Source: a virus. From it: 31,791 nt of DNA. Positions 2 to 31,750 of the stretch are shown piece by piece. The translations under genes were made by a program, and so were the position numbers. The stretch is taken from the UHGV virus genome UHGV-1970909. One strand, 5' to 3'. The first letter of the stretch is position 1; each line of letters begins with the position of its first letter. The notes beneath the pieces are model-generated. The model was not told the origin of the DNA. It saw only the letters and a program-made list of their open reading frames with translations, and ran no database searches.

Positions 2-55
2 TACCTGCGTGAGCGTACTGGTAAGGCTGCTCGTATCAAAGAGCGTCTTAACTAA
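2..55 (+). CDS. 3' end of a host protein-coding gene (partial; C-terminus ...YLRERTGKAARIKERLN, stop TAA 53-55); identity not recognised
   Basis: Frame-2 open reading frame enters from the window start and ends at TAA 53-55; its last 14 nt are the att core duplicated at the other prophage end; a hairpin terminator follows. Confidence 0.4.
   Translation, partial: YLRERTGKAARIKERLN
42..55. repeat. Left att core copy (AGCGTCTTAACTAA), identical to 31737-31750
   Basis: Exact 14-bp direct repeat (17 bp with one mismatch) at both prophage ends; the left copy forms the last codons and stop of the host ORF. Confidence 0.55.
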
Positions 56-93
56 TACAGCGCTTTCGCAACATCCGAAAGCTTGTAGAAAAC

Positions 94-130
94 AAGGGGT
101 TAGCGTAATGCTAACCCCTTTTCTTATTTT
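94..130 (+). terminator. Rho-independent terminator downstream of the host ORF (phage-supplied)
   Basis: 11-bp perfect stem AAGGGGTTAGC (94-104) / GCTAACCCCTT (110-120), 5-nt loop, followed by TTCTTATTTT. Confidence 0.6.
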
Positions 131-131
131 A

Positions 132-170
132 ATGTCCACGAAATGTCCACGCAGATCGTGGTATGTCCAC
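132..170. promoter_or_regulatory. Integrase arm-type binding site cluster: three direct copies of ATGTCCAC
   Basis: ATGTCCAC at 132-139, 143-150 and 163-170 (plus degenerate TGACCAC at 174-180); the same 8-mer occurs twice at 31623-31641. Its reverse complement GTGGACAT resembles the TGTGGACA arm-site repeat I recall for P2 integrase. Confidence 0.5.
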
Positions 171-185
171 GATTGACCACAGTGA

Positions 186-217
186 ACAGAAAATAAAAAA
201 ACCTGCCGAAGCAGGTT
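186..217 (-). terminator. Rho-independent terminator of ogr
   Basis: Immediately after the ogr stop (218-220) on the minus strand: stem AACCTGC (200-206) / GCAGGTT (211-217) with a 4-nt loop, followed on the minus strand by a U-run (plus-strand A-run 191-199). Confidence 0.6.
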
Positions 218-436
218 TTAAAGCCAGAGTTGATGTTGCTGATATCTGGTGGGGTGGGGCGGTGCCGGTTCAATTTCACCTGGTTTAACGATGAAGCGGG
301 CGAGGGTCTCATGAGTTACAAAAGTGCATCCACAGTTGATGTTTTGGCATTGATGGTAACGTTCTTTTGTTTCAGAGCTTAAGTACCGGCTTGACCGTGC
401 ATGGGCTGCATCCTGACATAACGGACAATGCATCAT
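218..436 (-). CDS. ogr: Ogr-type zinc-finger late-gene transcription activator (72 aa)
   Basis: Translation MMHCPLCQDAAHARSSRY...KERYHQCQNINCGCTF has the C-x2-C...C-x4-C arrangement and strongly resembles the P2 Ogr sequence as I recall it; located at the end of the tail operon as in P2. Confidence 0.92.
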   Translation of the reverse strand: MMHCPLCQDAAHARSSRYLSSETKERYHQCQNINCGCTFVTHETLARFIVKPGEIEPAPPHPTRYQQHQLWL

Positions 437-468
437 AATCTTTCCCCCTCTTTTGCTGACTTGTGGGG

Positions 469-497
469 ATAATAAACCTGCAACTTACATTTGCAAG
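469..497 (-). promoter_or_regulatory. Candidate sigma70 promoter for ogr (-35 TTGCAA, 17-bp spacer, -10 TATTAT on the minus strand)
   Basis: In the D-ogr intergenic region: minus-strand TTGCAA (492-497) and TATTAT (469-474) with a 17-nt spacer, about 30 nt upstream of the ogr ATG, which is preceded by a GAGGGGGAAAG Shine-Dalgarno. Confidence 0.45.
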
Positions 498-513
498 TTA
501 TTGTTTGCTTTTT

Positions 514-1677
514 TTAATCCTCATCTTCTTCATACTCAACATCTGTAATTTTGACTTCCAACTCTAAGCCCGTCGTGAAGCCACTCCCGTTAAGGCTATG
601 CACCACACGGCTGACTATCCATGCTTGCTCGTCTATAACGCGCTTAAAGCCCTTCACCGCAACCGGTGTTTCAGGAAATAAATCAGCGCGGCCAGTGGCG
701 AGCGTAATCGAAAATTCCGCCACCCCTCGCTGTATCCTGTCCCACTTCGCCTGAGCTGCGCGCATGGCCTGCACCTTTGTCGCGTAGATGGTCGTGAGTT
801 CCAGAACATTGTCGGACTCACCGGCCATATACTCACCTTCCCGCGCTTCCTGCTCCTTTTTCTTTTTAGCCTTTGCCGATGTTTTGGCGGCCTTCGGGTG
901 CTGCAACGCACGCAGGTGCTGCTCTTTGGGTTTGCGTTTGAGCTTCACCTTTTGCTTTTGCGGTTTTGGGTCTCTGGTGTGCAGCCATTTAGCCGTGACG
1001 CCGGTGTATGCCTCGCGGTCGGCAATGGAAAACTGATGTCGGTCGCCGTCACCGCGCTCGACCGTCATTTGTGGGACAGGCTTGCCACTGGCCGTCATCG
1101 CGCTACCGGCTTTCAGGAATAACAATTTCCCGGCTTTGACCGAAACCGTTGCCCCGTTACGATCCGCCAGCCGGGACAAAAACGCCGCGTCGGATTCCTG
1201 AGACTGGTCGATATGCGGTACAGCAACAGATTTCAGGGTGTCAGCCACGCTGGCCGTCAGTTTGTTACGCTGCGCGATAGCCTCAACAATCACCCCGAGC
1301 CTGGTGTCGTGCCATGACTGTTCCCGGCGCGAGTTCAGCGTCCCGCGAAAATCCGCGCTGCGTCCCCGAATGGTCAGCCTGTCAGGCGCGCCCCGGTGCT
1401 CGATTTCGTCGACCGTGAAACTCCCTTTGTTTATCAGCGCGGAGCCCTGCCAGCCCAGCCACAGTGTCAGCGACGCCCCGCGCGGTGGTAGCTCAACCAG
1501 CCCGTCAGTATCATCAAGCTCAATATCGAGTTGATCAGCCTCAAATCCGCGATTGTCGGTCATGGTCAGCCCGATAAGCCGGTCGCTGAAATTCTGTGTG
1601 ATATCTGCGCCATTGAGCGTGAGCATAAAGCCAGGGGCGATGCACGCACCGGCCTGAATATTCATTCCCGTTATCAT
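514..1677 (-). CDS. D: Tail protein gpD (late control gene D family), 387 aa
   Basis: Position between U and ogr and length match P2 gpD; 4-nt overlap with the upstream gene; basic lysine-rich linker as in gpD homologues. Confidence 0.9.
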   Translation of the reverse strand: MITGMNIQAGACIAPGFMLTLNGADITQNFSDRLIGLTMTDNRGFEADQLDIELDDTDGLVELPPRGASLTLWLGWQGSALINKGSFTVDEIEHRGAPDRLTIRGRSADFRGTLNSRREQSWHDTRLGVIVEAIAQRNKLTASVADTLKSVAVPHIDQSQESDAAFLSRLADRNGATVSVKAGKLLFLKAGSAMTASGKPVPQMTVERGDGDRHQFSIADREAYTGVTAKWLHTRDPKPQKQKVKLKRKPKEQHLRALQHPKAAKTSAKAKKKKEQEAREGEYMAGESDNVLELTTIYATKVQAMRAAQAKWDRIQRGVAEFSITLATGRADLFPETPVAVKGFKRVIDEQAWIVSRVVHSLNGSGFTTGLELEVKITDVEYEEDED

Positions 1678-2138
1678 CCTGTCAGCCCCCCGAGCCAGTT
1701 ACCGGCAGACGTGACCAGATTATCAGCCTGCGTTTTCAGGTCACCGTAGATAGCCGCGAGCGAATCATCCACCCGCTTAAGCGACAGGCTAAACTCGATT
1801 TTTTTAGCCGCGCCGTCGCTGAATAACTCGGTGTGGATGTGAGTCACTTTATCGATAACATACATCCCGTGGATCATGCCGGTTCCGTCAATCAGCGGCC
1901 ATGCGCGCCCCTCGTCGGCCATCAGTTCGATGGCCGTCAGTGACAGACGCCCGCCGGTGATTTCAGGGTAAAGCGTGCCCGACAGGGTGCGCGAGGTTTC
2001 CCCCTCCCCGAGATACTGATAAGCCGGTGGTTTTCCGATACGGTCATTTGACACCCAGCGGTAGTCCTTAGAATACTGCATTGACTGATGCGGCAGGGTG
2101 CGCCGTTCAAACACAAAAAATCCCAGCACCATAAGCAT
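1674..2138 (-). CDS. U: Tail protein gpU, 154 aa
   Basis: Synteny (T-U-D) and size as P2 gpU; translationally coupled to D (ATGA overlap). Confidence 0.88.
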   Translation of the reverse strand: MLMVLGFFVFERRTLPHQSMQYSKDYRWVSNDRIGKPPAYQYLGEGETSRTLSGTLYPEITGGRLSLTAIELMADEGRAWPLIDGTGMIHGMYVIDKVTHIHTELFSDGAAKKIEFSLSLKRVDDSLAAIYGDLKTQADNLVTSAGNWLGGLTG

Positions 2139-2151
2139 TTTTATCCCTCCC

Positions 2152-4593
2152 TCAGTCGAGTCTCATACTGGATCGCTGGCGCGCACGTTTCTCGCGGTCA
2201 AGTTTGTCAACGGCGTCACGGAGCTGGCGGTCAAGATCACTGCCCGGCGCGACCCCACCCTGCAGATTGATGTTGTATTCGCTTTTGCTCTGGTCGATAT
2301 AAGACCGGCCTGCGGGTGCTGTAACCAGCTGATACGCCTGATAGCCGCCATAGCCTGCGGTCGCAGGGATATACCCGCCATTCGTGGACGCCTTATCCGC
2401 TTTCGCGGCCGTCTGGTCGAGGTCGCTGGATTCTTTTTTGATAATGCCGAGTTTTTCCAGCAGCCAGCCGACCTTGCCGCTCAGGCTGTTAAACATATTG
2501 AGCGGCAGCATCAGCGCATCAGCCAGCGCCTGACCAAAAGTAACGCCGACATTTTTGCAACTGTTGAGCGTGTCCTGCGTGGCTTTCACCGGCGCAAGCA
2601 GGTCTTTAAACCACTGGCAGACGACACCCAGCTTTTCAGCGATGGCGTCAAACACCGGCGCGAGCGGAGTAAACATGTCCCCCACCGGTGCAAAGGCGGC
2701 TTTCAGTCCCTCCACCACGCCTGAGAAGAATGCACCGAGCGGCTTCCAGTATTTACGGATCAGCAACGCACCGGCCACGACTGCACCGGCTACCGCCAGC
2801 ACCGGCAGGCTGATTGCGCCAATGGCCGTGACAATCGCGCCGCCGACCGTACTGAAAACCACACCGAGTACGCCAGCCGCCGCAATGATGGCATTAATCC
2901 CCATCACCACCGGCCATGCGACAAGGCCAATCCCGCCCATCACACCGATCAGCGCCAGCGCACCCCCGACCACCACGCCGAGAGTGGTCGCCAGCCCCTG
3001 ATTTTTCTGGATCCAGCCGTCGAGCCTGAGCACATATTGCGTGGCTGTCTGCGTCAGCTTACGCAGGGAGCCCTCCTGCTGATCAAACAGGTCAGTCCCG
3101 ACCGCCTCATAGGCTGACTGAAACTCTTTAAAGTCGCCGCCGAGGTTATCCTGCATCACCTTAACCAGTTCCTCAGTCTTACCGTCCGAGGCTTTAAACG
3201 CGGCGGTGAGCTGGTCGAGCTTGCCGCTTGATGCGGCGGCCATCAGAACGGCGGCCGCCGAGCTGGCTTCTTCACCGAAAATGGTTTTCATGTATTCGGC
3301 TTTCTGACCCGTTCCGAGATTGTTTTTCTCAAAACTGCGCTGCATTTCCTTCAGGATGGAAAATATCGGGCGCGTGTTGCCTTTGCTGTCGCTCGTTTTA
3401 ATGCCGAGCTCTTTGATGGCGTCATAGGCTTTACCGGTCGGCGCCTGCAGGCGACTCAGAACGGCACGGCTCCCTGTACCCGCCATCGAGCCGGTGATTT
3501 TGGAATCGTGCAGCGCCCCCACCATTGCGGCGGTTTCTTCGATACTCACCCCGGCATTTTTCGCCACCGGCGCGGCATAGGTCAGCGCATCGCTCATCCC
3601 GTCAAAATCAGCGGCGGTTTTGTTCATCGTCATCGAGAGAACATCGCCAATATGCGCGACTTTATCGTTAGAGAGCTGGAACGCGGATTTCATGCCGGTC
3701 AGCAGCGCGGCGTTTTCTTCCATCGTGCGCTTGTTCGACAGTGCCATGTTCAGCGTGACCGGCGTCGCCGCCTGAATGGCCGCCGCATCGCCGCCGCTTT
3801 TGGCAATGATAATCTGCGCACCCGCCGCATCATCGGCAGAGGCAGCGGTATTGTCACCAAGCTGGCGCGCCTGTTTACGCAGCGCCTGCATTTCGGGCGA
3901 CTGTTTGTCGACACCGAGCACGGCCTGCAGCTCAGAGTTTTTCTGTGCAAATTCATAACCCGGCGTCATCAGCTTAACCCCGGCGAGGGTTCCTGTTGTC
4001 GCAATACCGACACTGGCCGCGCCAGCGGCCGCCATGCTACCGGCAAGCGATTTACCGGCCTGATACCGCTCTTTCACCCGGCTTAACTTCGCCTGTTGTG
4101 CGCTGACTTTCGCCAGTGCCTCACGCTGACGATTGAGCTGCGCGGTGGTCTCACTGATGCGCGATTTAAGTCCCCGCTCATCATTTGCCAGATTACGGGT
4201 ATTAATTCCCGCCGCACCGAGCTCGCGTTGCTGGCGTTTAACAGACTCCGTGAGGCTGTTGTATTTCGTCTGCAGCCCTTCGGCGGCACGCTTCGCGGAT
4301 TCAAGAACCTGCGCCTGCGCGCGCGTCGGGCGCTCGGTGTTTTTAAACTGCGTGGCTAGTGCTTCGGCTTCCTGTTTCGCTTTCTCAAGCGAGTGACCGG
4401 TTACGGCAAGCTGTGCGCTGGCTTTGCGGAATCCGTCAATACGGGACGCCTGCGCGTTAAGTTCGCGCAGGCTTTTCTGTGAATTGCGGATATCACCGGA
4501 CAGGGATTTGCTGGCGTTCTGAATCGCTTTAAGCGGGCGGCTCGCCCGGTCGACGGCGTTCAGCAGCACCTCGATTCTGACGTTATTGCTCAT
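2152..4593 (-). CDS. T: Tail tape-measure protein gpT, 813 aa
   Basis: Long Ala/Gln-rich coiled-coil N-terminus, glycine-rich hydrophobic central segment, position downstream of E/E'. Confidence 0.92.
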   Translation of the reverse strand: MSNNVRIEVLLNAVDRASRPLKAIQNASKSLSGDIRNSQKSLRELNAQASRIDGFRKASAQLAVTGHSLEKAKQEAEALATQFKNTERPTRAQAQVLESAKRAAEGLQTKYNSLTESVKRQQRELGAAGINTRNLANDERGLKSRISETTAQLNRQREALAKVSAQQAKLSRVKERYQAGKSLAGSMAAAGAASVGIATTGTLAGVKLMTPGYEFAQKNSELQAVLGVDKQSPEMQALRKQARQLGDNTAASADDAAGAQIIIAKSGGDAAAIQAATPVTLNMALSNKRTMEENAALLTGMKSAFQLSNDKVAHIGDVLSMTMNKTAADFDGMSDALTYAAPVAKNAGVSIEETAAMVGALHDSKITGSMAGTGSRAVLSRLQAPTGKAYDAIKELGIKTSDSKGNTRPIFSILKEMQRSFEKNNLGTGQKAEYMKTIFGEEASSAAAVLMAAASSGKLDQLTAAFKASDGKTEELVKVMQDNLGGDFKEFQSAYEAVGTDLFDQQEGSLRKLTQTATQYVLRLDGWIQKNQGLATTLGVVVGGALALIGVMGGIGLVAWPVVMGINAIIAAAGVLGVVFSTVGGAIVTAIGAISLPVLAVAGAVVAGALLIRKYWKPLGAFFSGVVEGLKAAFAPVGDMFTPLAPVFDAIAEKLGVVCQWFKDLLAPVKATQDTLNSCKNVGVTFGQALADALMLPLNMFNSLSGKVGWLLEKLGIIKKESSDLDQTAAKADKASTNGGYIPATAGYGGYQAYQLVTAPAGRSYIDQSKSEYNINLQGGVAPGSDLDRQLRDAVDKLDREKRARQRSSMRLD

Positions 4594-5052
4594 GATGGCT
4601 TCCGCTTCGTTGCAGCGCCTTATCGCGCCATGTCAGGAGCTCGGTCACGCTCAGGGAATTCAGCTCTGATGGCGGCCAGTGGAAGATCACCGCGATATCC
4701 GCCATCAGGTCATCGACCGACAGTTTTTCCGGGAAGGTCAGCGACCCGAAGCCGGTGACAAAAAACCAACCACCTTACCAGCCAGCGAAATCAGGTCTGA
4801 CGCATCCAGACGCGCGAGTTCGTGCTCGGTCAGTGCCGGATATGTCATACGCGGCAGCACCTTAATCAGCGCATCAACGTCGGAATTTGCCAGCGAGGCC
4901 AGCGACACCCCGCGCAGGGTTCCCGCATTCGGTTTGGTTAGCGTGACCTGCTCAATTTTCTGCTCACCGCGCATCAGCGGGGTGTCAAAAATAACGACAT
5001 TCGGATTGACGTTTTCAGTGTCAGCAACAGCAGTTTCATTGATATTTTTCAT
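4583..5052 (-). CDS. E+E': Frameshift fusion product gpE+E' (about 156 aa), made by -1 slippage at 4759-4765
   Basis: Hand translation of the -1 frame after the slippery site gives about 59 further codons without a stop, ending at TAA 4583-4585 and overlapping the T start, as in the conserved P2 E/E' arrangement. Confidence 0.6.
4738..5052 (-). CDS. E: Tail assembly chaperone gpE (zero-frame product)
   Basis: 104-aa ORF between FII and T; its 3' end contains the slippery heptamer T_TTT_TTG. Confidence 0.85.
   Translation of the reverse strand: MKNINETAVADTENVNPNVVIFDTPLMRGEQKIEQVTLTKPNAGTLRGVSLASLANSDVDALIKVLPRMTYPALTEHELARLDASDLISLAGKVVGFLSPASGR
4759..4765 (-). promoter_or_regulatory. Programmed -1 ribosomal frameshift slippery site T_TTT_TTG (E to E')
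   Basis: Minus-strand TTTTTTG in the correct phase (GGT TTT TTG in the E frame), 6 codons before the E stop; the -1 frame stays open to a TAA at 4583-4585. Confidence 0.65.
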
Positions 5053-5106
5053 GCGAATTTCTCATCAGGGTAAGTGACCGGCCAGCCCCGCTGACCGGTT
5101 GAGGGA

Positions 5107-5625: not shown

Positions 5626-5637
5626 GCTCAGAGCTCC

Positions 5638-6831: not shown

Positions 6832-7057
6832 CCGTTTAACTCCGTGGTTAAGGGGTGAGTGATATTTTCTGTTGTGTGGCAGGTGCGGGCTATTTGTCAG
6901 GGTTGGATAAGGTCTGACACAACAGCGGTGAATATTCGGGCTGTCACGATATTTGTCAGTTAATTTGGGTAATTTTATGTAATCATATGTTGTGAAAGCG
7001 CATCGGGATGATGCAAAAACATAATGCAATACAGATGATTACTGTTCAGGGCTGGTC

Positions 7058-7642
7058 ATGTTTAAGTACGTTTTAGCACTAAATTTTATTTTTTTTGGCA
7101 ATACACACAACCTGATGAATTACTGGAAAGCGGAGGTTATCAGAAGAGAGAAATTTTCACTGCACCGTCTTTTAAGAGAGAAAAAACACCGGGGCAGAAA
7201 TTTTATTTTTTGGTGGCGCCTGGCAAATGAAATGTATTTGAATGGTGGGAAAATACACAAAAAAGCAGCAAAGCAAATCAATGCTCACCTGATGGAAAAA
7301 TTTGGCTGCGAAATATCACTTGGTGCAAATATTGGCAAAGGAATAAAAATTCCACATCATCATGGAATTGTCATTCATCATTTGGTAGACATAGGTGAAA
7401 ACTTAGTCATACGCCAAAACACAACAATCGGTCAAAAAGACAGCGATGGTAAATCCTTCAAATTGCACATTGGGGATAATGTTGATATTGGTGCAAACAC
7501 ATGTATTGTTGGCCTGAATCATACAATTGGAAATAATGTGAAAATTGGAGCGATGTCATTCGTTAACTGTGACATCCCGGATGATTGTACGCTTGTTACG
7601 ACTAAAACGACCCGATTCATTAGCCATAACAACATATCATAA
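7058..7642 (+). CDS. Cargo gene: left-handed beta-helix (hexapeptide-repeat) acetyl/acyltransferase, CysE/WcaB-like, 194 aa
   Basis: Translation contains tandem hexapeptide repeats (IGANIGKGIKIP..., IGENLVIRQNTTIGQKD, IGDNVDIGANTCIVGLNHTIGNNVKIGAMSFV); AT-rich; opposite strand to flanking tail genes; sits at the P2 Z/fun position between G and FI. Exact start uncertain. Confidence 0.7.
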   Translation: MFKYVLALNFIFFGNTHNLMNYWKAEVIRREKFSLHRLLREKKHRGRNFIFWWRLANEMYLNGGKIHKKAAKQINAHLMEKFGCEISLGANIGKGIKIPHHHGIVIHHLVDIGENLVIRQNTTIGQKDSDGKSFKLHIGDNVDIGANTCIVGLNHTIGNNVKIGAMSFVNCDIPDDCTLVTTKTTRFISHNNIS

Positions 7643-12833: not shown

Positions 12834-13820
12834 TTATGGATTTGACTTACCTGAAGTCTCTTTTTTTATTTCAAATTTCCCACCCTTGAACATGATATTC
12901 GAATCTTTGATTCCATACAAAAGCATTTCATAAGGATGGTTAATTTTTTGTTCTTTTGTAGCGATACTGGAATTCATCAATTGCAACAAAGCCACATGAT
13001 GTTCACTCGCCCCTAACTCTACCATTTTGGTAGCCATGTTGCTTATCTGTTCTCGTTTTAAAAAATCTTCCCGGAGAGAAAGTAACGTTAAACTTCGTGC
13101 GTTACAAAACTTTATCATGTAAACAACAAACGCACCTAACCCAATATAGGAAAACGATAATGCTAAATAAATAGACGGTGTGGTTATTATGTTTTGCCCA
13201 AATATAAGAAAACCCAGCAGGCCAAAAAAATAAAAAACATTCACCAAAATAAACATGTTACTCATCAGAGCCTTTGTACTTCGAGTTGCATCATATTCTT
13301 TCTCCAGATGCTCCAAAAATGATGATATTTTTATTAAATTTAACTTTTCAATTGTTTCCTTCTCTAAAATCTTGAATTGCTCACTCTCTCTAATTAATTT
13401 TTTGGTAGTGTCCTCCACTGTATCATGCAATGATTCAGTGATCGCCTCTTCAATTTTATTTTCAGAAAACACGCTTGTTAAAGCGTAATTGGCTAATTCC
13501 TTTTGTCTTTTCTCGATTAAACTTTCGACATTTTCTCTGTACGCATCAAAATATTTTTGACCACTCTCGTTTAGCAATATTTTACGAATATGAAATTTTA
13601 TTTTCTCATCTGCCATTGGTTGGCTTTCAGTGTTACCATTCTTCTTTGTGTTATTATCTTTAGTTTCCGCATTATACCTGTCCTTGCCTGAATCAAGTAA
13701 GTTCCGTGAAATGAATTTCACCACAGGACCACGCAGAATAGCTATAGCTATTGCCATTGCAAGAATGAATGGTGAAGCATCAATAAATGATCGCGCAAAT
13801 ACGAAAGAGATTTCACTCAT
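12834..13820 (-). CDS. Cargo gene: predicted integral membrane protein with coiled-coil region (about 329 aa), function unknown
   Basis: AT-rich ORF in the gap between V and S (P2 orf30 position). Hydrophobic helices at FILAMAIAIAIL and FILVNVFYFFGLLGFLIFG...IYLALSFSYIGLGAFVVYMI, with a long charged K/E-rich middle. Start chosen at MSEISF (ATG with GGGAA 6 nt upstream); the six-frame ORF begins at an upstream TTG. Confidence 0.7.
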   Translation of the reverse strand: MSEISFVFARSFIDASPFILAMAIAIAILRGPVVKFISRNLLDSGKDRYNAETKDNNTKKNGNTESQPMADEKIKFHIRKILLNESGQKYFDAYRENVESLIEKRQKELANYALTSVFSENKIEEAITESLHDTVEDTTKKLIRESEQFKILEKETIEKLNLIKISSFLEHLEKEYDATRSTKALMSNMFILVNVFYFFGLLGFLIFGQNIITTPSIYLALSFSYIGLGAFVVYMIKFCNARSLTLLSLREDFLKREQISNMATKMVELGASEHHVALLQLMNSSIATKEQKINHPYEMLLYGIKDSNIMFKGGKFEIKKETSGKSNP

Positions 13821-14133
13821 AAACATTTCCCTATCTAAAATCAAAGAGTTTACTTTTACCCATATTTTCTACTGACTGAACCAGTTTGACAAGAGAGATA
13901 AGCATCTTTAATATCGATTTTGCCCATTAGGCATGAAAATAAAAAATACCACATGAAATCAATATCATACAATGACCACGCGTTGACCTCATCCATAACC
14001 AATAAATTATCTGATCATGAAATTCTTGATATGCATTGCAGAATTCGATTTCCACCATTTCGCTTTTAGATGTTCATCAAATATCAACACCCCACTATCA
14101 GTAGTTGACAGATCAACTCGTAGCTAATTCAAA

Positions 14134-23194: not shown

Positions 23195-24460
23195 ATGAAT
23201 ATAATGAAATGTTTTGAATGCGAAACCTGTGGTACACACATTGATTGTAGAATAGGACTTTCAAATCGAGATGTGCAGCCTTTTCAGTTTGCTTGTCCTG
23301 AATGTGAAGAAAAAATTACTTTTAATATTTTGGGTGAAGACTTCAACCTAGAAGGGGCCATTGATCTTGTTGATTTTGAGGCACCATTTACGGGGGGTAA
23401 TCATTTCATAGATTTACACTTGGATTTTCCCGCCTCATTTGAAAAATATGAAATGGGATTTACTCCATTCATGCGAGCTGCTCAGGAAATCGGTCATGAG
23501 AACTATCAGCATCTTAATGAGAGACTGAATGCTCTTAACTACTTATACCCTAAAAAGAGAGAGTTAAGACGCTTAATAACTCAGTATAAACGAGGCGAAG
23601 TAAATACATTTCGAAAAACCTGCAATAAGCTTCTTGGTATACAATTAAAATCTAATAAGAAACAAGATATATTAGCCGCTTTGTATACAGCAACATCCAT
23701 AATGTCTTCACCTTTTACCATACATCAACATAATGAAGAAATAAGCACTAAAATGCCTGATTTATTACGTTCGCTTGATTACACTCACAAAATAAAAACA
23801 AGGGCGTTTTTTGAACAGTTAATTAAAACTGGTTTCTTACGAAATGTACACCATGAATGCCTATCCTTGTACCCAAAAATCGTAGAATTAGACCTACCAT
23901 TAAGGCCAGCCCTTTATTTTGACTACAAGCAATTAAATGAAGGGGATAAAATTTCAGGGCGGGTTTCAACTGCTGACTTTGATAGTTGCAGTAATTTATA
24001 TAAGGATCTATCTGAAGTCTTTTCGCGATTATTAACATTAGTTGCGGGGCTTAATAATCTGCTAAAACGTGGAGATTATGATCTGTTTGATGATTCAGTT
24101 CGTTTAAATAAAAAACAAGAATTAATTAAAGAACTTGCATCTTTAAATAATTTTACCAATATGGATTTAGGTAAAAAAATAGAGTGTATTGATGATTCAT
24201 TTTATTACATCGACAAGAGTGCAATTAATCACAAGTTACGAAATGCAATTGCCCATTATAAATATGAGTACGAAGAATCTACACAAATGATTTTCTATTA
24301 CCCAAATAGAGAAGGAATGAGCAGAGAGAACATGTATGAAATTTCATTTCTTGAATTTCTTAGATATTCTTTGATGCTTTTTCGTGAGGTTCATTCATTG
24401 AATCACATTGTTAAATCATTGTTTTTTTACACTGTGCTTGTTTTAAAGAAGGACATTTAA
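23195..24460 (+). CDS. Cargo gene: N-terminal zinc-ribbon + C-terminal HEPN-like (R-x4-H) domain protein, 421 aa; candidate abortive-infection RNase
   Basis: AT-rich ORF with a strong AAGGAG Shine-Dalgarno; N-terminus CFECETCGTH...ACPECEEK (C-x2-C...C-x2-C); C-terminal motif HKLRNAIAHYKYEY (R349-N-x3-H354, nt 24239-24256); sits between cos and A, where P2 carries tin/old. Confidence 0.75.
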   Translation: MNIMKCFECETCGTHIDCRIGLSNRDVQPFQFACPECEEKITFNILGEDFNLEGAIDLVDFEAPFTGGNHFIDLHLDFPASFEKYEMGFTPFMRAAQEIGHENYQHLNERLNALNYLYPKKRELRRLITQYKRGEVNTFRKTCNKLLGIQLKSNKKQDILAALYTATSIMSSPFTIHQHNEEISTKMPDLLRSLDYTHKIKTRAFFEQLIKTGFLRNVHHECLSLYPKIVELDLPLRPALYFDYKQLNEGDKISGRVSTADFDSCSNLYKDLSEVFSRLLTLVAGLNNLLKRGDYDLFDDSVRLNKKQELIKELASLNNFTNMDLGKKIECIDDSFYYIDKSAINHKLRNAIAHYKYEYEESTQMIFYYPNREGMSRENMYEISFLEFLRYSLMLFREVHSLNHIVKSLFFYTVLVLKKDI

Positions 24461-24471
24461 AGCTAAAGGTA

Positions 24472-24509: not shown

Positions 24510-24568
24510 CTGTTAATAATCTTTACGAATTTCTCAGATATTTGTTTAAGATCTTATATTATCATAAC

Positions 24569-24751: not shown

Positions 24752-24771
24752 GAAATCTCTCCCAATATTTT

Positions 24772-24791: not shown

Positions 24792-24865
24792 TCACGTATT
24801 GGCAATTGATGGGAAGAGAAAAAGTGGATCACGTAGGTGTTGTATGTGCATGATATGGATGCGAA

Positions 24866-27088: not shown

Positions 27089-27089
27089 T

Positions 27090-27311
27090 TCATACGCCCC
27101 GATAATGCTTTGATTTAAGCTCGGCGATTTGCTGACAGGTCACGCAAAAAGCCACGCCCGGAATCGCAATGCGGCGGGCTTCTGGGATTGGTGCGTTGCA
27201 TTCTTCGCAGAAAAAACGAGAAGGCACAGCGATACGGCTGCGCACGTTGTTGATATGGCGCTCGCGCTCGGCTTGTTCGCGCTCCTGTACTCCATCCATA
27301 ACGTCGGCCAT
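27090..27311 (-). CDS. DksA/TraR-family C4 zinc-finger protein, 73 aa
   Basis: CEECNAPIPEARR...CVTCQ four-cysteine motif; directly upstream of A as a small ORF of this kind is in P2. Confidence 0.8.
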   Translation of the reverse strand: MADVMDGVQEREQAERERHINNVRSRIAVPSRFFCEECNAPIPEARRIAIPGVAFCVTCQQIAELKSKHYRGV

Positions 27312-27538
27312 TAGTGCAACTCCTGAGATTCATTTTCAAAGCGGGTGGCTTCACGGCGCAGCAATTCAGCGGCCTCTTTGCCGTTCATACCTTCATTGGT
27401 TATATGGATAGCCAGCGCCTCAAGACGGATTGAAACGGCGAGTGCGCGGTCTTTGCGCTCTTCTTTTTTGGCATCTGTCAGCAGCACGGCCAGCGCGTCA
27501 CTATCAGTATTAAAACTATGGGGTTCGGTATTGCGCAT
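27311..27538 (-). CDS. Hypothetical early-region protein, 75 aa
   Basis: ATG-initiated ORF in the same orientation as the early operon; 1-nt overlap with the downstream gene. Confidence 0.55.
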   Translation of the reverse strand: MRNTEPHSFNTDSDALAVLLTDAKKEERKDRALAVSIRLEALAIHITNEGMNGKEAAELLRREATRFENESQELH

Positions 27539-27607
27539 AACTAACTCTCCTGATTTCGGGCAATAAAATGCCCGGCGGGTTTACGCCAGAAAATTAATTG
27601 TGATTAA

Positions 27608-27808
27608 TTAGCTATAGCCAAATACAACGGCAGGTTTACTTTTTAACTGGCTGATAATTTCAGCTTTCAGGCCATCCTTAAACTCTTTGCAGCACTCCCA
27701 CTCAGGGTCAACCCGAAGTATTGCACCGTCGCGAGTTTTAATTTCAAAACCGTCTTCCATATTCGGAATCATGGCTCCTAAAACAATTCTTAATTCATCG
27801 CGTGACAT
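27608..27808 (-). CDS. Hypothetical early-region protein, about 66 aa (start at MSRDEL)
   Basis: ORF with internal ATG preceded by AAAGG; sits where 186 carries small host-interaction genes (fil/dhr), but no similarity to them is claimed. Confidence 0.45.
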   Translation of the reverse strand: MSRDELRIVLGAMIPNMEDGFEIKTRDGAILRVDPEWECCKEFKDGLKAEIISQLKSKPAVVFGYS

Positions 27809-27968
27809 GTTTAATACCTTTAATAATAAAGTGGACAATACGAACAATTAAAAAGCCTGACGACTTCGGCGGCTTTGTTTCCAGCCCTTTTAATAATTCG
27901 GACTGTGAGCAGCACGGATGCCAGCGCTTGCCATCTTTCCCCGCAATCCAACCGTGGCCGTAATGCAT
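27795..27968 (-). CDS. Possible small early ORF, about 57 aa (uncertain)
   Basis: Fills the gap between cII and the next gene; no convincing Shine-Dalgarno; overlaps neighbours. Confidence 0.25.
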   Translation of the reverse strand: MHYGHGWIAGKDGKRWHPCCSQSELLKGLETKPPKSSGFLIVRIVHFIIKGIKHVTR

Positions 27969-28029
27969 GCCGGGACTTTGCTTAACGAGCAGAGAAGCGA
28001 ATGAAGGTTCATTTTTCAGCACAGGTACC

Positions 28030-28539
28030 TCATACCAAACCGAATGTTGCGCCAATGCCGGTCATGGTGTCGACGACACTCGACATTGCCGGGTTAGCCT
28101 GGAGGCGAGCCTGTAACGCCAGCGCCGACAATGACAGCATGCGAATACCGGCGTTAACGCTTTCAACCATGTTGTGTTTACGAGCAGAGGACAGGCGTTC
28201 ATCAGATGCAGCACCGTTCGCCAGTTCGCCGAGTTCGCTCATTGCGCGCATGACATAGGACTGCAATTTATCTTTAGCCAACTCATTAACCGGCACACAA
28301 GGTAGACAATGGATCTGCGCCAGAAAGCCATCAACGAGGGTTGAGTCTTCGGTCAGATCAGTCAGCAGCCATAACTCAGGCGGTGTGAACTGGTGAGGCT
28401 GTTCCGGGTTAAGTTTGTTACGTAACGTCTGAACATTCATACCCGCACGCTCGGCCAGCTTCGCCATGTTGTGACGCTGCGCGAAAGCCCGGCACGCTTC
28501 GTCATAGTGGGGATGTTTGGAAATTTGAAAATCAAACAT
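28030..28539 (-). CDS. cII: CII-like transcriptional regulator (186 CII family), 169 aa
   Basis: Same length as 186 CII as I recall it; helix-turn-helix segment MAKLAERAGMNVQTLRNKL; position downstream of apl. Confidence 0.78.
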   Translation of the reverse strand: MFDFQISKHPHYDEACRAFAQRHNMAKLAERAGMNVQTLRNKLNPEQPHQFTPPELWLLTDLTEDSTLVDGFLAQIHCLPCVPVNELAKDKLQSYVMRAMSELGELANGAASDERLSSARKHNMVESVNAGIRMLSLSALALQARLQANPAMSSVVDTMTGIGATFGLV

Positions 28540-28574
28540 GTATTTTTCCTCGCTATCTTAAATAATCGAGTTGC

Positions 28575-28799
28575 TCAGGCTGCCACATAGCGGCAATTGA
28601 GACCCTGAGCCAAGAGTCGAGCACGGAAGGCAACCATATTGATACGCGCTGCACCACCGTCTTTTTTACGAGGCATCAGGAGGAGGTCTCCATCAGCAAC
28701 CATCTGTTTTACAGTACGAATGCAGTAGCCGTAGCATTCGGCAAATTCGTCATAAGTCATGAGATCAGCGCCGGGCGGGATTGCAATTTGTGGAGTCAT
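28575..28799 (-). CDS. apl: Apl/Cox-like excisionase and switch repressor, 74 aa
   Basis: Small HTH protein (MTYDEFAECYGYCIRTVKQMV) as first gene of the lytic operon, divergent from cI, as in 186 (Apl) and P2 (Cox). Confidence 0.72.
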   Translation of the reverse strand: MTPQIAIPPGADLMTYDEFAECYGYCIRTVKQMVADGDLLLMPRKKDGGAARINMVAFRARLLAQGLNCRYVAA

Positions 28800-28864
28800 A
28801 AGTAATCATCTCCGGTTATTAGTTGGTTTGGTGCATTGGCGTGCATTTTTAAATTCAAGTGAGA

Positions 28865-28892
28865 ATCTTATCTCGAAAATGCGAGATGTCAA
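28865..28892 (-). promoter_or_regulatory. Candidate lytic promoter pR (minus-strand -35 TTGACA, 16-bp spacer, -10 TAAGAT) with palindromic operator in the spacer
   Basis: Minus strand TTGACA (28887-28892) and TAAGAT (28865-28870); perfect inverted repeat ATCTCG-N6-CGAGAT (28870-28887) lies between them; about 60 bp upstream of apl. Confidence 0.5.
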
Positions 28893-28924
28893 TTTGGATT
28901 TTCGCGATAACTCGGATTTTTAAG

Positions 28925-29503
28925 ATGAAATTGGATGAGTTAGAGGGTGGAAAAGCAGTGCTGCAGCGCATCCTTGATGCGTATGGCTTCACCATGCAAA
29001 AACAACTCGGTGACCTGCATGAGCTGTCATCGGGAACAATTAGCACGTGGGTTAGGCGTAATTTTTTCCCCGGGGATGTTGTTGTTGCATGCGCTTTGGA
29101 TACTGGGGTGTCTTTACGTTGGTTGGCAACAGGGAAGGGGAACAAGTTTGATGCTGACCATACTAATGGCGAAATGAAAACATTAGACCGATTGGATATT
29201 GTTGCAGGTAAGCTGCAGGAAAACGGTCATTGGATTGTTGATGCTAATCTTTTTTCTACTGACGCGACGCACCCTAATTACATAGTAAAAGGCCAGCAGT
29301 CCTGGATAGTTGACTTCGATATGACTGATATAGCAAATGGCCGATGGATGCTCAGTATCGACGGGGATCATGATGTCTATGACGTTGCAAGGATCCCGGG
29401 GAACAGAATAAAAGTCAGCAACGCTGATGCCGATTTTCAATGCTCAGTTTCTGAGGTTAAGTGTATTGGCATGGTGCTGGTAAGCCTGACGAAATCTAGC
29501 TAA
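28925..29503 (+). CDS. cI: CI immunity repressor (186-CI-like), 192 aa
   Basis: Start at MKLDELEGGKAVLQRILDAYGF gives 192 aa, the 186 CI length as I recall it; N-terminal HTH; immediately upstream of int on the same strand. Confidence 0.85.
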   Translation: MKLDELEGGKAVLQRILDAYGFTMQKQLGDLHELSSGTISTWVRRNFFPGDVVVACALDTGVSLRWLATGKGNKFDADHTNGEMKTLDRLDIVAGKLQENGHWIVDANLFSTDATHPNYIVKGQQSWIVDFDMTDIANGRWMLSIDGDHDVYDVARIPGNRIKVSNADADFQCSVSEVKCIGMVLVSLTKSS

Positions 29504-29507
29504 TGAT

Positions 29508-30536
29508 ATGAGTGTTAAAAAACTGACATCGGGTGAATGGCTTTGTGATTTCCGCGTCGACGGGGCTGAAAGTCGCCGCGTGCGTAAGAAGTTTTCAACC
29601 AAAGGTGAAGCCCTTGCCTTCGAGCAGTATTACCGAGAAGAGGCACAAAATAAGCCGTGGATGGGTGAGAAGGAAGACCGTCGACGTTTGAGTGAACTGA
29701 TTGAGCTTTGGCATAACCTCCATGGTCAGTCGCTCGCTGCCAGCAAATCACGATTGGCCAAACTGCACATTGTTTGCCGAGGTCTTGGTGATCCGATAGC
29801 AACCCAGCTTACCGCTAAAGATTTTGCCCATTATCGTGATAAGCGCCTCAAGGGTGAAATCGACAATGGCTATCACGCGAATCCTGAAAAGTGGATTGCG
29901 AAACCCGTCACTGTGAACCGGGAGCAGCAGTACCTTGAGGCCGTTTTCAATGAGCTGAAACGCTTGGGGGAGTGGAGTTTGCCAAATCCTCTCGAAGGTG
30001 TGCGAGTTTTCAAAGAAGCCGAAAAAGAAATGTCCTGGCTTACCCAGCCTCAAATTCGCGAAGTGCTCAACGCGTGTGAATGCTACGGAAAAATTTACTT
30101 AACTCGCATCGTCAAAGTATGCCTTGCGACCGGTGCTCGATGGAGCGAGGCCGAACGCCTTACTCGTTCACAGCTTTCGCCCCATAAGTTGACTTTCACG
30201 AAAACGAAGGGAAAGAAGAATCGTACAGTACCGATCCCTCGCTGGCTGTATGACGAGTTGGCTCCTTTGCAGGGAAAAATGTTCCACCCCTGTTATCAGG
30301 AGTTCAAGAAAATGCTCGCACTGACCGATATTGTGTTGGCTGAAGGGCAGAAGACCCACGTGTTACGCCATACGTTTGCAAGCCATTTTATGATGAATGG
30401 GGGTAACATCTTGGTACTCCAACGGATTCTTGGTCACGCGAACATACGGGAGACGATGCGTTATGCTCACTTTGCACCGGATCATTTAGAGGAAGCTGCT
30501 CAATTGAATCCAATTGCAAAACTTATTACTCATTGA
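29508..30536 (+). CDS. int: Tyrosine integrase, 342 aa
   Basis: C-terminal catalytic signature ...THVLRHTFASHFMMNGGNILVLQRILGHANIRETMRYAHF (H-x-x-R ... Y); downstream of cI. Confidence 0.93.
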   Translation: MSVKKLTSGEWLCDFRVDGAESRRVRKKFSTKGEALAFEQYYREEAQNKPWMGEKEDRRRLSELIELWHNLHGQSLAASKSRLAKLHIVCRGLGDPIATQLTAKDFAHYRDKRLKGEIDNGYHANPEKWIAKPVTVNREQQYLEAVFNELKRLGEWSLPNPLEGVRVFKEAEKEMSWLTQPQIREVLNACECYGKIYLTRIVKVCLATGARWSEAERLTRSQLSPHKLTFTKTKGKKNRTVPIPRWLYDELAPLQGKMFHPCYQEFKKMLALTDIVLAEGQKTHVLRHTFASHFMMNGGNILVLQRILGHANIRETMRYAHFAPDHLEEAAQLNPIAKLITH

Positions 30537-30595
30537 TTTTTTTTCTATGAATGTTTTGCGTGAAGATTCTTGTCCATTATTATTAAGGAGTTTGA

Positions 30596-31600
30596 ATGCC
30601 TACCAATCGTACTAGATACTCATTTTTAAGCCCAATGAGTATCAGTGATAGCGTCAGTGTTTTTTTTGCAGCCCTTGATTTTTTTTCAATCCCTGGACAG
30701 GACAAGGTTAGGAAAACTATAGCTATACCTCAAACCAATAATGGTATTCATCCTCTTCCTGCTGGTTCTTTCATGGATTATATTAAGGCGTTAAATATTT
30801 TGGCTGAGCCTGATCGCCACATGCAAAATATACGAAAGCTACTTAACAAAATGGAAGGTGTAGGTTTGTTAGTACCTATGGGGAACTCTGGGAGTGTATT
30901 TTTCCCAACCAATTATTACTTCTTGAAAGAATTAACTGAGAGAGAAAAGAAAGGTCGATTCTGGTTGTCTGAATGCTTGGGGCCTGAGTATGTGTACAAG
31001 TTTTTTGGTAATTTAATCATACATATCGTAGGCATGACATCAGATGGAGATGAACATGGAGGCACTGGAGTTATTATTAATGATAAACTGGTTTTGACAT
31101 GCAAGCATGTAATCGATGAAATGGTTATCAATGATACTCAATTTATTAATGGTAGTCAGATCAAAGTAGTCAACACGCATACACATAATGAAATTGATGT
31201 TGGAATTATTGAGTTCGAACCAAATAGCTTTATTGTAAATGGGAATGTGTGTTTTGATTCTCCGCACTTAAATGATGATATATATGTTTTAGGCTATCCA
31301 CCAATTCCATATTCAAAAGAAGTTGCGCCAATAATGCAGAAAGGTGAGATTACTAACCCTGAAATTACTACATTGGATAATCATACGGTTTTTCTTTTCT
31401 CTGCTATAGCTAGACCTGGTAATAGTGGAGGTCCAATTATTGCTAGGAATGGCAGGATCCTTGGGATAGTCACGAAAGAGCTATCACTTCAAGAAAGCAA
31501 TAACTTCCCGTTCTTTGCGGGGATTCCAACAAATGAAATAGTAACAGCCCTCTCTGATATGGGGTTTGGAGGGATACTTCCTGTCGAAAATTATCAGTAG
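30596..31600 (+). CDS. Cargo gene: two-domain protein with C-terminal trypsin/chymotrypsin-like serine protease (H171, D201, S277 in GNSGGP) and an unrecognised N-terminal domain, 334 aa
   Basis: AT-rich ORF with a perfect AAGGAG Shine-Dalgarno; motifs TCKHVI, EIDVGIIEF and ARPGNSGGPII in H-D-S order; no signal peptide evident; sits between int and the right integrase arm repeats. Confidence 0.75.
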   Translation: MPTNRTRYSFLSPMSISDSVSVFFAALDFFSIPGQDKVRKTIAIPQTNNGIHPLPAGSFMDYIKALNILAEPDRHMQNIRKLLNKMEGVGLLVPMGNSGSVFFPTNYYFLKELTEREKKGRFWLSECLGPEYVYKFFGNLIIHIVGMTSDGDEHGGTGVIINDKLVLTCKHVIDEMVINDTQFINGSQIKVVNTHTHNEIDVGIIEFEPNSFIVNGNVCFDSPHLNDDIYVLGYPPIPYSKEVAPIMQKGEITNPEITTLDNHTVFLFSAIARPGNSGGPIIARNGRILGIVTKELSLQESNNFPFFAGIPTNEIVTALSDMGFGGILPVENYQ

Positions 31601-31622
31601 TGCTGGAAAACTGTACCATTCG

Positions 31623-31645
31623 ATGTCCACATTATGTCCACGCAG
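31623..31645. promoter_or_regulatory. Integrase arm-type binding sites (two direct copies of ATGTCCAC) at the right end
   Basis: ATGTCCAC at 31623-31630 and 31634-31641, same 8-mer and orientation as at 132-170; about 95 bp from the right att core. Confidence 0.5.
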
Positions 31646-31736
31646 CATGTTTTTGGTTGCACTTGATTGCACTGGAGATACATATAACTAACTGTTTGTA
31701 ATGAAAAATATATGTTTATCAATGGTGTTGGGTAAA

Positions 31737-31750
31737 AGCGTCTTAACTAA
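31737..31750. repeat. Right att core copy (AGCGTCTTAACTAA)
   Basis: Identical to 42-55; an in-frame TAA immediately upstream shows this copy is not preceded by the host ORF, consistent with phage-derived DNA to its left and host DNA to its right. Confidence 0.55.

What the first reader, a model, noticed from the sequence alone, without database searches (positions are those of the whole stretch)
42..31750. Prophage boundaries: 14-bp att core at the 3' end of a host ORF, arm-site repeats at both ends, and a phage-supplied terminator
AGCGTCTTAACTAA occurs at 42-55 (closing the host ORF) and 31737-31750. ATGTCCAC repeats sit 80-115 bp inside both cores in the same orientation. The phage side of the left junction supplies a strong hairpin terminator (94-130) that replaces the displaced host terminator. 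This defines a precise excision product of about 31.7 kb and indicates integration into a protein-coding gene rather than a tRNA.
Basis: seen in the sequence. Interest (0 to 1): 0.4.

Follow-up and report, generated by a model that had tools for sequence, protein, structure and literature searches.

The report
P2-like prophage inserted at rplS end

Summary
AGCGTCTTAACTAA occurs only at 42-55 and 31737-31750. The left copy closes rplS (ribosomal protein L19). The E. coli K-12 empty site equals window 1-55 joined to 31751-31791, base for base. The element between the copies is an intact-looking P2/186-family prophage with ogr at the left end and CI, integrase and a cargo gene at the right end. 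Excision would give a 31,695-bp circle.

The ATGTCCAC repeats match the arm-type integrase sites of phage P2 in sequence, orientation and roughly 11-bp spacing.

Three refinements:
- The "phage-supplied" terminator is a phage-borne copy of the rplS 3' untranslated region and terminator. It is 85% identical to the native Salmonella sequence and only 50% identical to E. coli's. That explains why identity is only 14 bp in E. coli.
- Related phage and lysogen sets place strand exchange in the left part of the core, most likely AGCGTCT (42-48). The last codons and stop codon of rplS in lysogens are therefore phage DNA.
- The integrase is PSP3-like (76% identity) in its core-binding and catalytic parts, but its N-terminal domain goes with P2-type arm sites.

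The rplS site is already recorded for a PSP3-like Salmonella prophage, and about 1.6% of complete E. coli genomes have it occupied. Interest is low to moderate.

The parts
1..55 (+). 3' end of host rplS (L19), the last 17 codons plus the stop codon. Bases from about 49 onward are inferred to be phage-derived in the lysogen.
   Evidence: The translation is YLRERTGKAARIKERLN*. RefSeq annotates this as rplS in E. coli. It is identical to K-12.
42..55 (+). Left junction core (attL): the 14-bp identity block AGCGTCTTAACTAA.
   Evidence: There is a single copy in the K-12 empty site.
42..48 (+). Inferred strand-exchange (overlap) region AGCGTCT.
   Evidence: Free phage Midge attP has AGCGTCTGAACTAA. 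The related SA53-3 lysogen has G in attL and T in attR. Strain 10035210-2 has TGA in attL and TAA in attR. Window identity starts at 42. This is an inference, not shown for this phage.
56..87 (+). Phage-borne copy of the first hairpin of the rplS 3'UTR (ACATCC in the loop).
   Evidence: Fold. It is homologous to native rplS 3'UTRs of Salmonella, Pectobacterium and others.
94..130 (+). Intrinsic terminator (stem 94-120, T-rich tail 121-130), a phage-borne copy of the rplS operon terminator. It ends rplS transcription in the lysogen. It would end the cI-int-cargo transcript in the excised phage.
   Evidence: Covariation in 10 of 15 pairs. No other terminator lies between 31600 and the core.
132..180 (+). 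ogr-side arm (P arm in P2 naming): Int arm-type sites ATGTCCAC at 132, 143 and 163, plus a degenerate TGACCAC at 174-180.
   Evidence: Compared with the P2 P arm CGTCCAC/TGACCAC. Consensus from PMC3448106.
198..219 (-). Terminator of ogr and the late operon.
   Evidence: The same element is annotated in P2.
218..436 (-). ogr-type late transcription activator, the leftmost phage gene.
   Evidence: Pfam Ogr_Delta, E = 3.5e-21.
28575..28799 (-). Cox/Apl-like excisionase and repressor.
   Evidence: phrog_575, E = 4.3e-20.
28859..29503 (+). CI-type immunity repressor (186 type).
   Evidence: Pfam Phage_CI_repr and Phage_CI_C.
29508..30536 (+). Tyrosine integrase.
   Evidence: Pfam Int_N and Phage_integrase. 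It is 76-77% identical to PSP3 and Midge Int and 38-40% to P2 Int.
30596..31600 (+). Cargo gene (trypsin-like serine peptidase) between int and the int-side arm sites. Not part of the recombination machinery.
   Evidence: Pfam Trypsin_2. PADLOC gives domain-level hits only. Other genes occupy this place in relatives, and none does in PSP3.
31623..31641 (+). int-side arm (P' arm in P2 naming): two ATGTCCAC sites 11 bp apart.
   Evidence: The P2 P' arm is TGTCCAC twice, 11 bp apart.
31657..31673 (+). Direct repeat TTGCACT twice, 10 bp apart. Candidate Cox/Apl binding sites, judged by position only.
   Evidence: Sequence. Cox sites occupy this position in P2. Similar paired repeats are present in PSP3, Midge and SA53-3. 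Not tested.
31737..31750 (+). Right junction core (attR).
31751..31791 (+). Host DNA: the native E. coli rplS 3'UTR and the first half of the native rplS terminator, whose stem begins near 31776.
   Evidence: Identical to K-12. Terminator scan of K-12.

Best explanation
The window is a complete P2/186-family (Peduoviridae) prophage. Its own tyrosine integrase inserted it into the 3' end of the E. coli ribosomal protein gene rplS.

The phage attachment site lies between the int-side genes and ogr. It consists of:
- two P2-type arm sites on the int side;
- about 95 bp of spacer, probably carrying excisionase sites;
- a core that copies the last bases of rplS;
- a copy of the rplS 3' untranslated region and terminator;
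- three to four more arm sites on the ogr side.

Recombination with the chromosomal rplS end exchanges strands within the shared core, most likely the 7 bp AGCGTCT at 42-48. After integration, rplS ends in phage-supplied codons, stop codon, 3'UTR and terminator. These are identical in coding sense, so L19 is unchanged. Transcription of the highly expressed rpsP-rimM-trmD-rplS operon is stopped before it can run antisense into ogr and the tail genes. The displaced host terminator then ends the prophage's cI-int-cargo transcript. Excision by Int together with the Cox/Apl-like protein would give a 31,695-bp circle and restore the K-12-type site.

Shown: the junctions, the empty site, the homology of the terminator, and the arm-site pattern. 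Inferred: the exact exchange positions, the accessory-protein sites, and the transcriptional roles.
For: - Junctions: the empty site in K-12 equals the left flank plus one core plus the right flank. The host gene is rplS and the neighbour is yfiB.
- Phage identity: gene order and family hits. The best whole-genome relatives are Enterobacter phage ENT4 (84.7% over 68%) and other Peduoviridae.
- attP in virion genomes: PSP3, SW9 and Midge carry the predicted contiguous attP, in the order int-side arm, core AGCGTCT(T/G)AACTAA, hairpins, ogr-side arm.
- Arm sites: they match the P2 arm sites in sequence, orientation and spacing (PMC3448106).
- Terminator: conserved with compensatory changes. It is homologous to native rplS 3'UTRs, 85% to S. 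enterica diarizonae with a 40-nt perfect block and 50% to E. coli. Those native sites have no phage genes next to them.
- Exchange position.
- Frequency: 85 of 5,426 complete E. coli genomes have a phage junction at this place. About 25 of 70 species-level loci across Enterobacterales have ogr and D next to rplS.
- Literature: a PSP3-like Salmonella prophage is recorded at yfiN-rplS (PMC6449608).
Against: - There is no experimental evidence of excision for this prophage.
- No free-phage genome with this exact combination (P2-type arms plus rplS core) was found. The exact predicted attP junction gave no match in IMG/VR. The arm-pattern scan gave only integrated or ambiguous junctions.
- The T tract of this copy of the terminator is interrupted (TTTTCTTATTTT), whereas relatives have T6-T8.
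- Only a weak IHF-consensus match exists between the core and the ogr-side arm.
- The exchange positions are inferred from phages with 76-77% identical integrases, not from this one.
- A heterology inside the overlap, resolved by replication, could give the same attL/attR pattern.
Confidence: 0.88

Rival explanations
1. The boundaries are right, but the prophage is defective. It is a fixed resident that no longer excises, so no 31.7-kb circle is ever produced.
For: This cannot be excluded from sequence. Decayed remnants do occur at this very site. E. coli E2348/69 keeps only a truncated integrase, a cargo gene and attR next to tail-fibre genes. FORC 064 has an internal stop in the replication gene.
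Against: All expected P2-family genes appear as full-length ORFs in the expected order. Int, the Cox-like protein, CI and CII have full-length family matches. Both arms and both cores are intact.
Confidence: 0.1
2. The hairpin at 94-130 exists for the phage's own needs. It ends the cI-int-cargo transcript in the non-integrated genome, or it shapes the intasome. Under this reading, restoring rplS termination is a by-product rather than the selected function.
For: No other terminator lies between the cargo gene stop (31600) and the core, so in attP this hairpin is the first terminator downstream of int. The one near-consensus IHF match (90-102) overlaps its 5' stem. P2-like attP sites that target tRNA or tmRNA ends show the same layout of gene end, hairpin and arm sites (L133, L145, L146).
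Against: The segment is homologous to native rplS 3'UTRs, including the upstream hairpin, which has no evident phage role. The two roles are not exclusive.
Confidence: 0.3
3. The 14-bp repeat is a chance match, and the true junctions lie elsewhere.
For: Exact 14-17-nt repeats occur by chance elsewhere in the window.
Against: The K-12 empty site joins the two flanks exactly at this repeat. Independent lysogens and free phages share the same core.
Confidence: 0.01

Closest known systems
Phage P2 Int/attP system (Peduovirus P2, NC_001895)
   Same: attP lies between int and ogr. Arm sites are TGTCCAC-type direct repeats in pairs about 11 bp apart on both sides of the core, all in one orientation. 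The ogr-side arm includes a TGACCAC variant. A Cox-like excisionase gene is present. The int-side arm lies about 90 bp from the core.
   Different: Int is only 38-40% identical. The P2 core (locI) does not lie in a gene end and carries no terminator copy. The P2 ogr-side arm is about 36 bp from the core, against 77 bp here. The repressor here is the 186-type CI, not P2 C.
Salmonella phage PSP3, SW9 and Escherichia phage Midge (Eganvirus and relatives)
   Same: They have the same core (AGCGTCT(T/G)AACTAA), the same rplS 3'UTR and terminator copy in attP, and an Int 76-77% identical overall, 85-88% in the core-binding domain. A PSP3-like prophage is recorded at yfiN-rplS in Salmonella Pullorum (PMC6449608).
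   Different: Their arm repeats are the 186 type (TGGCGGCA), not TGTCCAC. Their Int N-terminal domains are only 49-51% identical to this one. They have no cargo gene between int and attP.
Phage 186 and other P2-like phages that integrate into tRNA or tmRNA genes
   Same: The strategy is the same. attP carries the 3' end of the target gene, so integration regenerates an intact gene (PMC3448106). The layout of gene end, hairpin and arm sites is seen in tRNA-targeting relatives.
   Different: The target here is a protein-coding gene. The duplicated part is 14 bp of coding sequence with its stop codon, plus the 3'UTR and terminator.
Group B Streptococcus prophages with integrase type GBSInt3
   Same: They also insert at the 3' end of rplS (PMC7487436, Table 1).
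   Different: The host phylum, attachment sequence (GATTCCGGCAGGGGACAT) and phage are all unrelated. The shared target gene is a case of convergence.

Membership tests
P2-like (Peduoviridae) Int/attP site-specific recombination module | Tyrosine integrase with an N-terminal arm-binding domain, a core-binding domain and a catalytic domain | tested here: met
   Pfam Int_N (E = 5.6e-34) and Phage_integrase (E = 6e-20). It aligns end to end with P2 and PSP3 Int.
P2-like (Peduoviridae) Int/attP site-specific recombination module | attP located between int and ogr, so that the prophage ends are ogr and int | tested here: met
   ogr is at 218-436(-) at the left end. int is at 29508-30536(+) near the right end. 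The order is the same in P2 and PSP3.
P2-like (Peduoviridae) Int/attP site-specific recombination module | At least two direct arm-type repeats on each side of the core (P2-type consensus tgTGGaCa) | tested here: met
   Three or four copies on the ogr side and two on the int side, all on the same strand. Consensus from PMC3448106.
P2-like (Peduoviridae) Int/attP site-specific recombination module | A core shared by attP and attB: a direct repeat at the prophage ends and a single copy in the empty site | tested here: met
P2-like (Peduoviridae) Int/attP site-specific recombination module | Cox/Apl excisionase with binding sites between the int-side arm and the core | tested here: inconclusive
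   The gene is present (phrog_575). TTGCACT twice at 31657-31673 is only a positional candidate for the sites.
P2-like (Peduoviridae) Int/attP site-specific recombination module | IHF site between the core and the ogr-side arm | tested here: inconclusive
   There is only one 1-mismatch match to WATCAANNNNTTR, at 90-102.
P2-like (Peduoviridae) Int/attP site-specific recombination module | Demonstrated integration and excision activity | not testable with these tools
   Needs PCR, sequencing or in vitro recombination.
PSP3-type (Eganvirus) rplS-targeting integrases | Core AGCGTCT(T/G)AACT(A/G)A at the rplS stop codon, followed by a copy of the rplS 3'UTR and terminator | tested here: met
PSP3-type (Eganvirus) rplS-targeting integrases | 186-type arm repeats (tgccGCCActt, i.e. 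TGGCGGCA) and the matching N-terminal domain residues (W, E, Y) | tested here: not met
   The window has TGTCCAC arms. Its residues are W11, D14 and R16, and the N-terminal domain is 49-51% identical (discriminator positions from PMC3448106).
Integrative elements whose attP duplicates the 3' end of the target gene | The phage side of the junction regenerates the gene end, so the product is unchanged | tested here: met
   The L19 C-terminus is unchanged. Relatives replace CTT by CTG, or TAA by TGA, without changing the protein.

The most novel reading that the evidence does not exclude
The integrase may be a natural domain hybrid. Its core-binding and catalytic body would be PSP3-type, keeping rplS specificity, and its arm-binding domain would have switched to P2-type arm sites. 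The attP arms would have co-switched.

Of the three discriminator positions proposed by Nilsson et al. 2011, it has the P2 residues at two (D14, R16) and the 186 residue at the third (W11). If arm specificity really follows this domain, the pair of phage types sharing one attB would be a ready-made test of which residues read the arm sites. It would also show that arm and core specificity are exchanged as separate modules in nature.
Probability: 0.4. Interest if true: 0.35.

Novelty: new member of a known kind. Interest (0 to 1): 0.25.

Why it matters
It gives a clean, fully resolved example of a phage that inserts into an essential ribosomal protein gene without harming it. The phage does so by carrying a spare copy of the gene's end, 3'UTR and terminator.

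Three practical points follow:
- The exact repeat at prophage ends (14 bp here, 8 bp for Midge-type phages in E. coli) can greatly understate the real homologous attachment region. That region is about 85 bp in Salmonella-type hosts.
- The last codons of rplS in lysogens are phage DNA.
- The rplS end is a widely used attachment site across Enterobacterales. At least two integrase types with different arm specificities use it, which is useful for prophage annotation and for choosing integrase and att pairs as tools.

None of this changes current understanding of P2-family integration.

Tried and rejected
- Literature: searches for rplS with P2-like, prophage or yfiB found no dedicated description. 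One table entry (PMC6449608) and the streptococcal cases were the only records.
- Exact predicted attP junction (AAAAGCGTCTTAACTAATA) in IMG/VR: no match.
- Arm-pattern scan in IMG/VR: mostly unrelated elements carrying the same arm motif. It found one further attL (L141) and one ambiguous junction (L038), but no clean free-phage attP of this type.
- Rfam: nothing at gathering score in the window. The only weak match over 26-137 was SpF03_sRNA at 25.4 bits against a cut-off of 50, E = 0.12, treated as chance.
- IHF consensus: no convincing site.
- tRNA or tmRNA target: none in the window.
- I looked for an inverted repeat around the overlap as core-type Int sites. None was convincing by eye, so none is claimed.
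- YfiB is not downstream of rplS in the Salmonella loci. I therefore judged the native status of those sites by the absence of ogr, D and int instead.


Full report
**The observation**

The 14-mer AGCGTCTTAACTAA is present at 42-55 and 31737-31750 and nowhere else in the window, even with one mismatch allowed. ATGTCCAC occurs five times, all on the + strand and all within about 115 bp of the two cores: 132, 143, 163, 31623 and 31634. Shuffles of the whole window give 0.82 expected. With one mismatch allowed the motif is no more frequent than chance elsewhere.

The repeat finder adds three points:
- The core sits in a 38-nt imperfect repeat (39-76 vs 31734-31771, 79% identity).
- The arm repeats form a 23-nt unit, ATGTCCAC-N3-ATGTCCACGCAG, at both ends.
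- Other exact 14-17-nt repeats occur by chance in the window. The 14-mer is therefore significant because of where it lies, not because it exists.

The hairpin at 94-120 with a T-rich tail is found by the terminator scan. The fold of 40-135 is -30.3 kcal/mol, z = -4.3.

**What the flanks are**

Frame 2-55 encodes YLRERTGKAARIKERLN*, the C-terminus of ribosomal protein L19. RefSeq annotates the matching E. coli sequence as rplS, the last gene of rpsP-rimM-trmD-rplS, with yfiB convergent downstream.

In E. coli K-12 MG1655 the sequence reads ...ATCAAAGAGCGTCTTAACTAAGATTTCGCTTAAGCGACATCCTGTTAAGAAGGGCTGGCCAATTGGCTGGCCCTTTTTT. This is window 1-55 followed directly by window 31751-31791, with one copy of the core. 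The native rplS terminator lies to the right of the right junction and is cut by the end of the window.

**What lies between**

The ORF order, composition and family matches are those of a P2/186-family phage:
- ogr, D, U, the tape measure gene and the other tail genes, then lysis and head genes;
- the replication gene A, with CII, Fil and Cox-like early genes;
- the CI repressor, int, and a cargo gene.

The nearest sequenced phages are Enterobacter phage ENT4 (84.7% over 68% of the query) and other Peduoviridae at about 77%. No tRNA and no Rfam family are present. The distance between the two cores is 31,695 bp, a normal genome size for this family.

**Evidence from free phage genomes**

I joined the two phage-side ends into the predicted attP and searched phage genomes. 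Alignments in PSP3, SW9 and SI22 run across the junction. PSP3, SW9 and Midge were read directly. In each the order is:
- int;
- int-side arm repeats;
- an AT-rich spacer;
- the core, (G)AGCGTCTTAACTAA in PSP3 and SW9 and AGCGTCTGAACTAA in Midge;
- a first hairpin with ACATCC in the loop;
- a GC-rich hairpin with a T tract;
- the ogr-side arm repeats, the ogr terminator and ogr.

The architecture inferred for the window therefore exists as contiguous DNA in virion genomes.

**Arm sites**

The phage P2 record annotates the experimentally defined attP. On the strand where int reads forward, the int-side (P') arm is TGTCCAC-N4-TGTCCAC and the ogr-side (P) arm is CGTCCAC-N4-TGACCAC.

The window has ATGTCCAC-N3-ATGTCCAC on the int side. 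On the ogr side it has ATGTCCAC-N3-ATGTCCAC, then ATGTCCAC-N2-TTGACCAC, with the same orientation and the same 10-11-bp phasing. Nilsson et al. 2011 give tgTGGaCa as the P2-type arm consensus and tgccGCCActt as the 186 type (PMC3448106). The window's repeats are the reverse complement of the P2 type.

**The terminator is a copy of the host's own**

I scanned IMG/VR and one genome per bacterial species for the core plus the ACATCC motif. This returned 43 and 70 loci. Sorted by what lies on each side, they fall into three classes:
- empty chromosomal sites: rplS on the left, no ogr, D or int nearby. Examples are Salmonella enterica arizonae and diarizonae, Pectobacterium polonicum, Serratia marcescens and Dryocola;
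- left junctions: rplS followed by arm repeats and ogr/D, about 25 species-level loci in Kosakonia, Enterobacter, Citrobacter, Escherichia, Pectobacterium, Brenneria, Lonsdalea, Symbiopectobacterium and Pluralibacter;
- right junctions: int and the int-side arm followed by host DNA.

The empty sites already contain the same two hairpins after the rplS stop codon. In the 44-sequence alignment, the window's segment after the core is 85% identical to the native S. enterica diarizonae 3'UTR, with a 40-nt perfect block. It is 82% identical to the Salmonella flank found at many right junctions and only 50% identical to native E. coli, which has a 10-nt deletion there. The terminator stem keeps pairing through compensatory changes in 10 of 15 pairs.

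So the phage carries a copy of the rplS tail, 3'UTR and terminator, in the way tRNA-targeting phages carry the 3' part of the tRNA gene. The identity block shrinks to 14 bp only because E. coli's 3'UTR has diverged.

No terminator-like site lies between the cargo gene stop (31600) and the core. This hairpin is therefore also the first terminator downstream of cI-int-cargo in the excised genome. In the prophage that transcript instead meets the displaced host terminator. These transcriptional roles are inferred.

**Where strands are exchanged**

- Free phage Midge has G at the position equivalent to window 49. E. coli has T.
- In E. coli SA53-3, which carries a Midge-like prophage, the left junction has G and the right junction has T.
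- In strain 10035210-2 the left junction ends rplS with TGA and the right junction keeps TAA.

Both cases place the exchange to the left of position 49. For Midge-type phages the uninterrupted identity with E. coli is only GAGCGTCT (41-48). In the window, identity begins at 42. If these 76-77% identical integrases cut at the same positions, the overlap is AGCGTCT (42-48), 7 bp as in other lambda-family integrases (general knowledge). The last codons, the stop codon and everything downstream of rplS in the lysogen are then phage DNA. This is an inference. A heterology inside the overlap resolved by replication could mimic the pattern.

**The integrase**

It is 96% identical to integrases of prophages at the same site in 13 E. 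coli genomes such as FORC 064. It is 76-77% identical to PSP3 and Midge Int and 38-40% identical to P2 Int.

By domain against PSP3, identity is 51% for residues 1-55, 88% for 56-175 and 78% for 176-335. High conservation of the core-binding part fits the shared core. The divergent N-terminal part fits the different arm repeats: PSP3, SW9, Midge, SA53-3 and 10035210-2 all have TGGCGGCA-type arms.

At the three discriminator positions proposed by Nilsson et al. (Y/W, D/E, R/Y) the window has W11, D14 and R16. The second and third are P2-like and the first is 186-like. That paper also noted that 186-type integrases tend to target tRNA genes. This clade is 186/PSP3-like overall but targets a protein gene.

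**How common and how new**

- All 5,426 complete E. coli genomes have the site. 85 have a phage junction covering at least 80% of window 1-131.
- 17 have a right junction with this P2-type arm.
- No E. coli complete genome holds this whole prophage.
- A table in a Salmonella Pullorum study lists a PSP3-like prophage at yfiN-rplS (PMC6449608).
- Nilsson et al. left the PSP3 site blank.
- Unrelated streptococcal prophages also use the rplS 3' end (PMC7487436; PMC8115907).

The kind of system and the site are thus known. This phage, its arm and core combination, and the fine structure described here are new only in detail.

**Limits**

- Excision has not been observed.
- Accessory sites are unresolved. 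The only IHF-consensus match has one mismatch. The TTGCACT pair at 31657-31673 is a candidate Cox/Apl site by position only.
- The T tract of this terminator copy is interrupted.
- I did not find a free-phage genome with exactly this arm and core combination.

Noticed in passing
window 30596-31600 (+): A 334-aa trypsin-like serine peptidase gene (Pfam Trypsin_2) sits between int and the int-side arm sites, at lower GC (about 43%). PADLOC gives only domain-level matches to protease parts of defence proteins (RT-Protease_XI, LmuA, HamA). Relatives carry different genes at this place (FORC 064, SA53-3, 10035210-2, E2348/69) and PSP3 carries none. It looks like a variable cargo slot next to attP, possibly for defence genes.
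   Followed up: partly
window 23195-24460 (+), 12834-13844 (-), 7058-7642 (+): Three low-GC (34-39%) inserts lie at positions that in P2 hold variable or moron genes (after the portal and cos region, between S and V, and between FI and G). The 421-aa protein matches only phrog_13366 (unknown function). The 336-aa ORF matches nothing. The 194-aa protein matches phrog_2154, with weak hexapeptide-repeat hits. None matches PADLOC. From my own knowledge, P2 hotspots often carry anti-phage systems.
   Followed up: partly
window 29508-29672 (Int residues 1-55): The N-terminal arm-binding domain is only 49-51% identical to PSP3-type integrases, while the core-binding domain is 85-88% identical. Residues W11, D14 and R16 mix the 186-type and P2-type discriminators proposed by Nilsson et al. 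2011.
   Followed up: yes
window 56-87, and native rplS 3'UTRs in L053-L122: A hairpin with ACATCC in its loop lies between the rplS stop codon and the terminator in many Enterobacterales and in the phage copies. Two alternative stems (CTTTCG/CGAAAG or CACGC/GCGTG) present the same loop. Its invariance is partly forced by my search pattern, but E. coli K-12, which the pattern did not select, also has ACATCC at the same offset. The function is unknown and there is no Rfam family.
   Followed up: partly
L096 and L100 (Pectobacterium fontis contig NZ_JSXC01000034.1); also L054/L084, L079/L087, L070/L113: Several Pectobacterium genomes have two rplS-type junctions on one contig. L096 has phage-type sequence on both sides of the core: int and the int-side arm on the left, 186-type arm repeats on the right, and no ogr or D beyond. 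This suggests tandem integrations or leftover scars at this site, involving phages with different arm types.
   Followed up: no
L105 (CACSKA010000005.1, labelled Chryseobacterium sp. 18061): This contig carries an enterobacterial rplS (96.6% protein identity to E. coli L19). Its left junction is almost identical to the window's and to that of Citrobacter sp. OP27. The record is probably mislabelled or contaminated.
   Followed up: no
L009 (E. coli O127:H6 E2348/69, NC_011601 2973156-2979323): At the same site E2348/69 keeps only a remnant: a 3' fragment of the integrase gene, a cargo gene and the right junction, fused directly to tail-fibre genes.
   Followed up: no
L133, L145, L146 (IMG/VR contigs): Other elements with the same TGTCCAC-N4-TGTCCACGCAG arm pair sit next to the 3' end of a tRNA or tmRNA-like gene (...GGTTCAAGTCCCGCCGCCTCCACCA) followed by a hairpin terminator. 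The layout of gene end, terminator copy and arm sites recurs with different targets.
   Followed up: no
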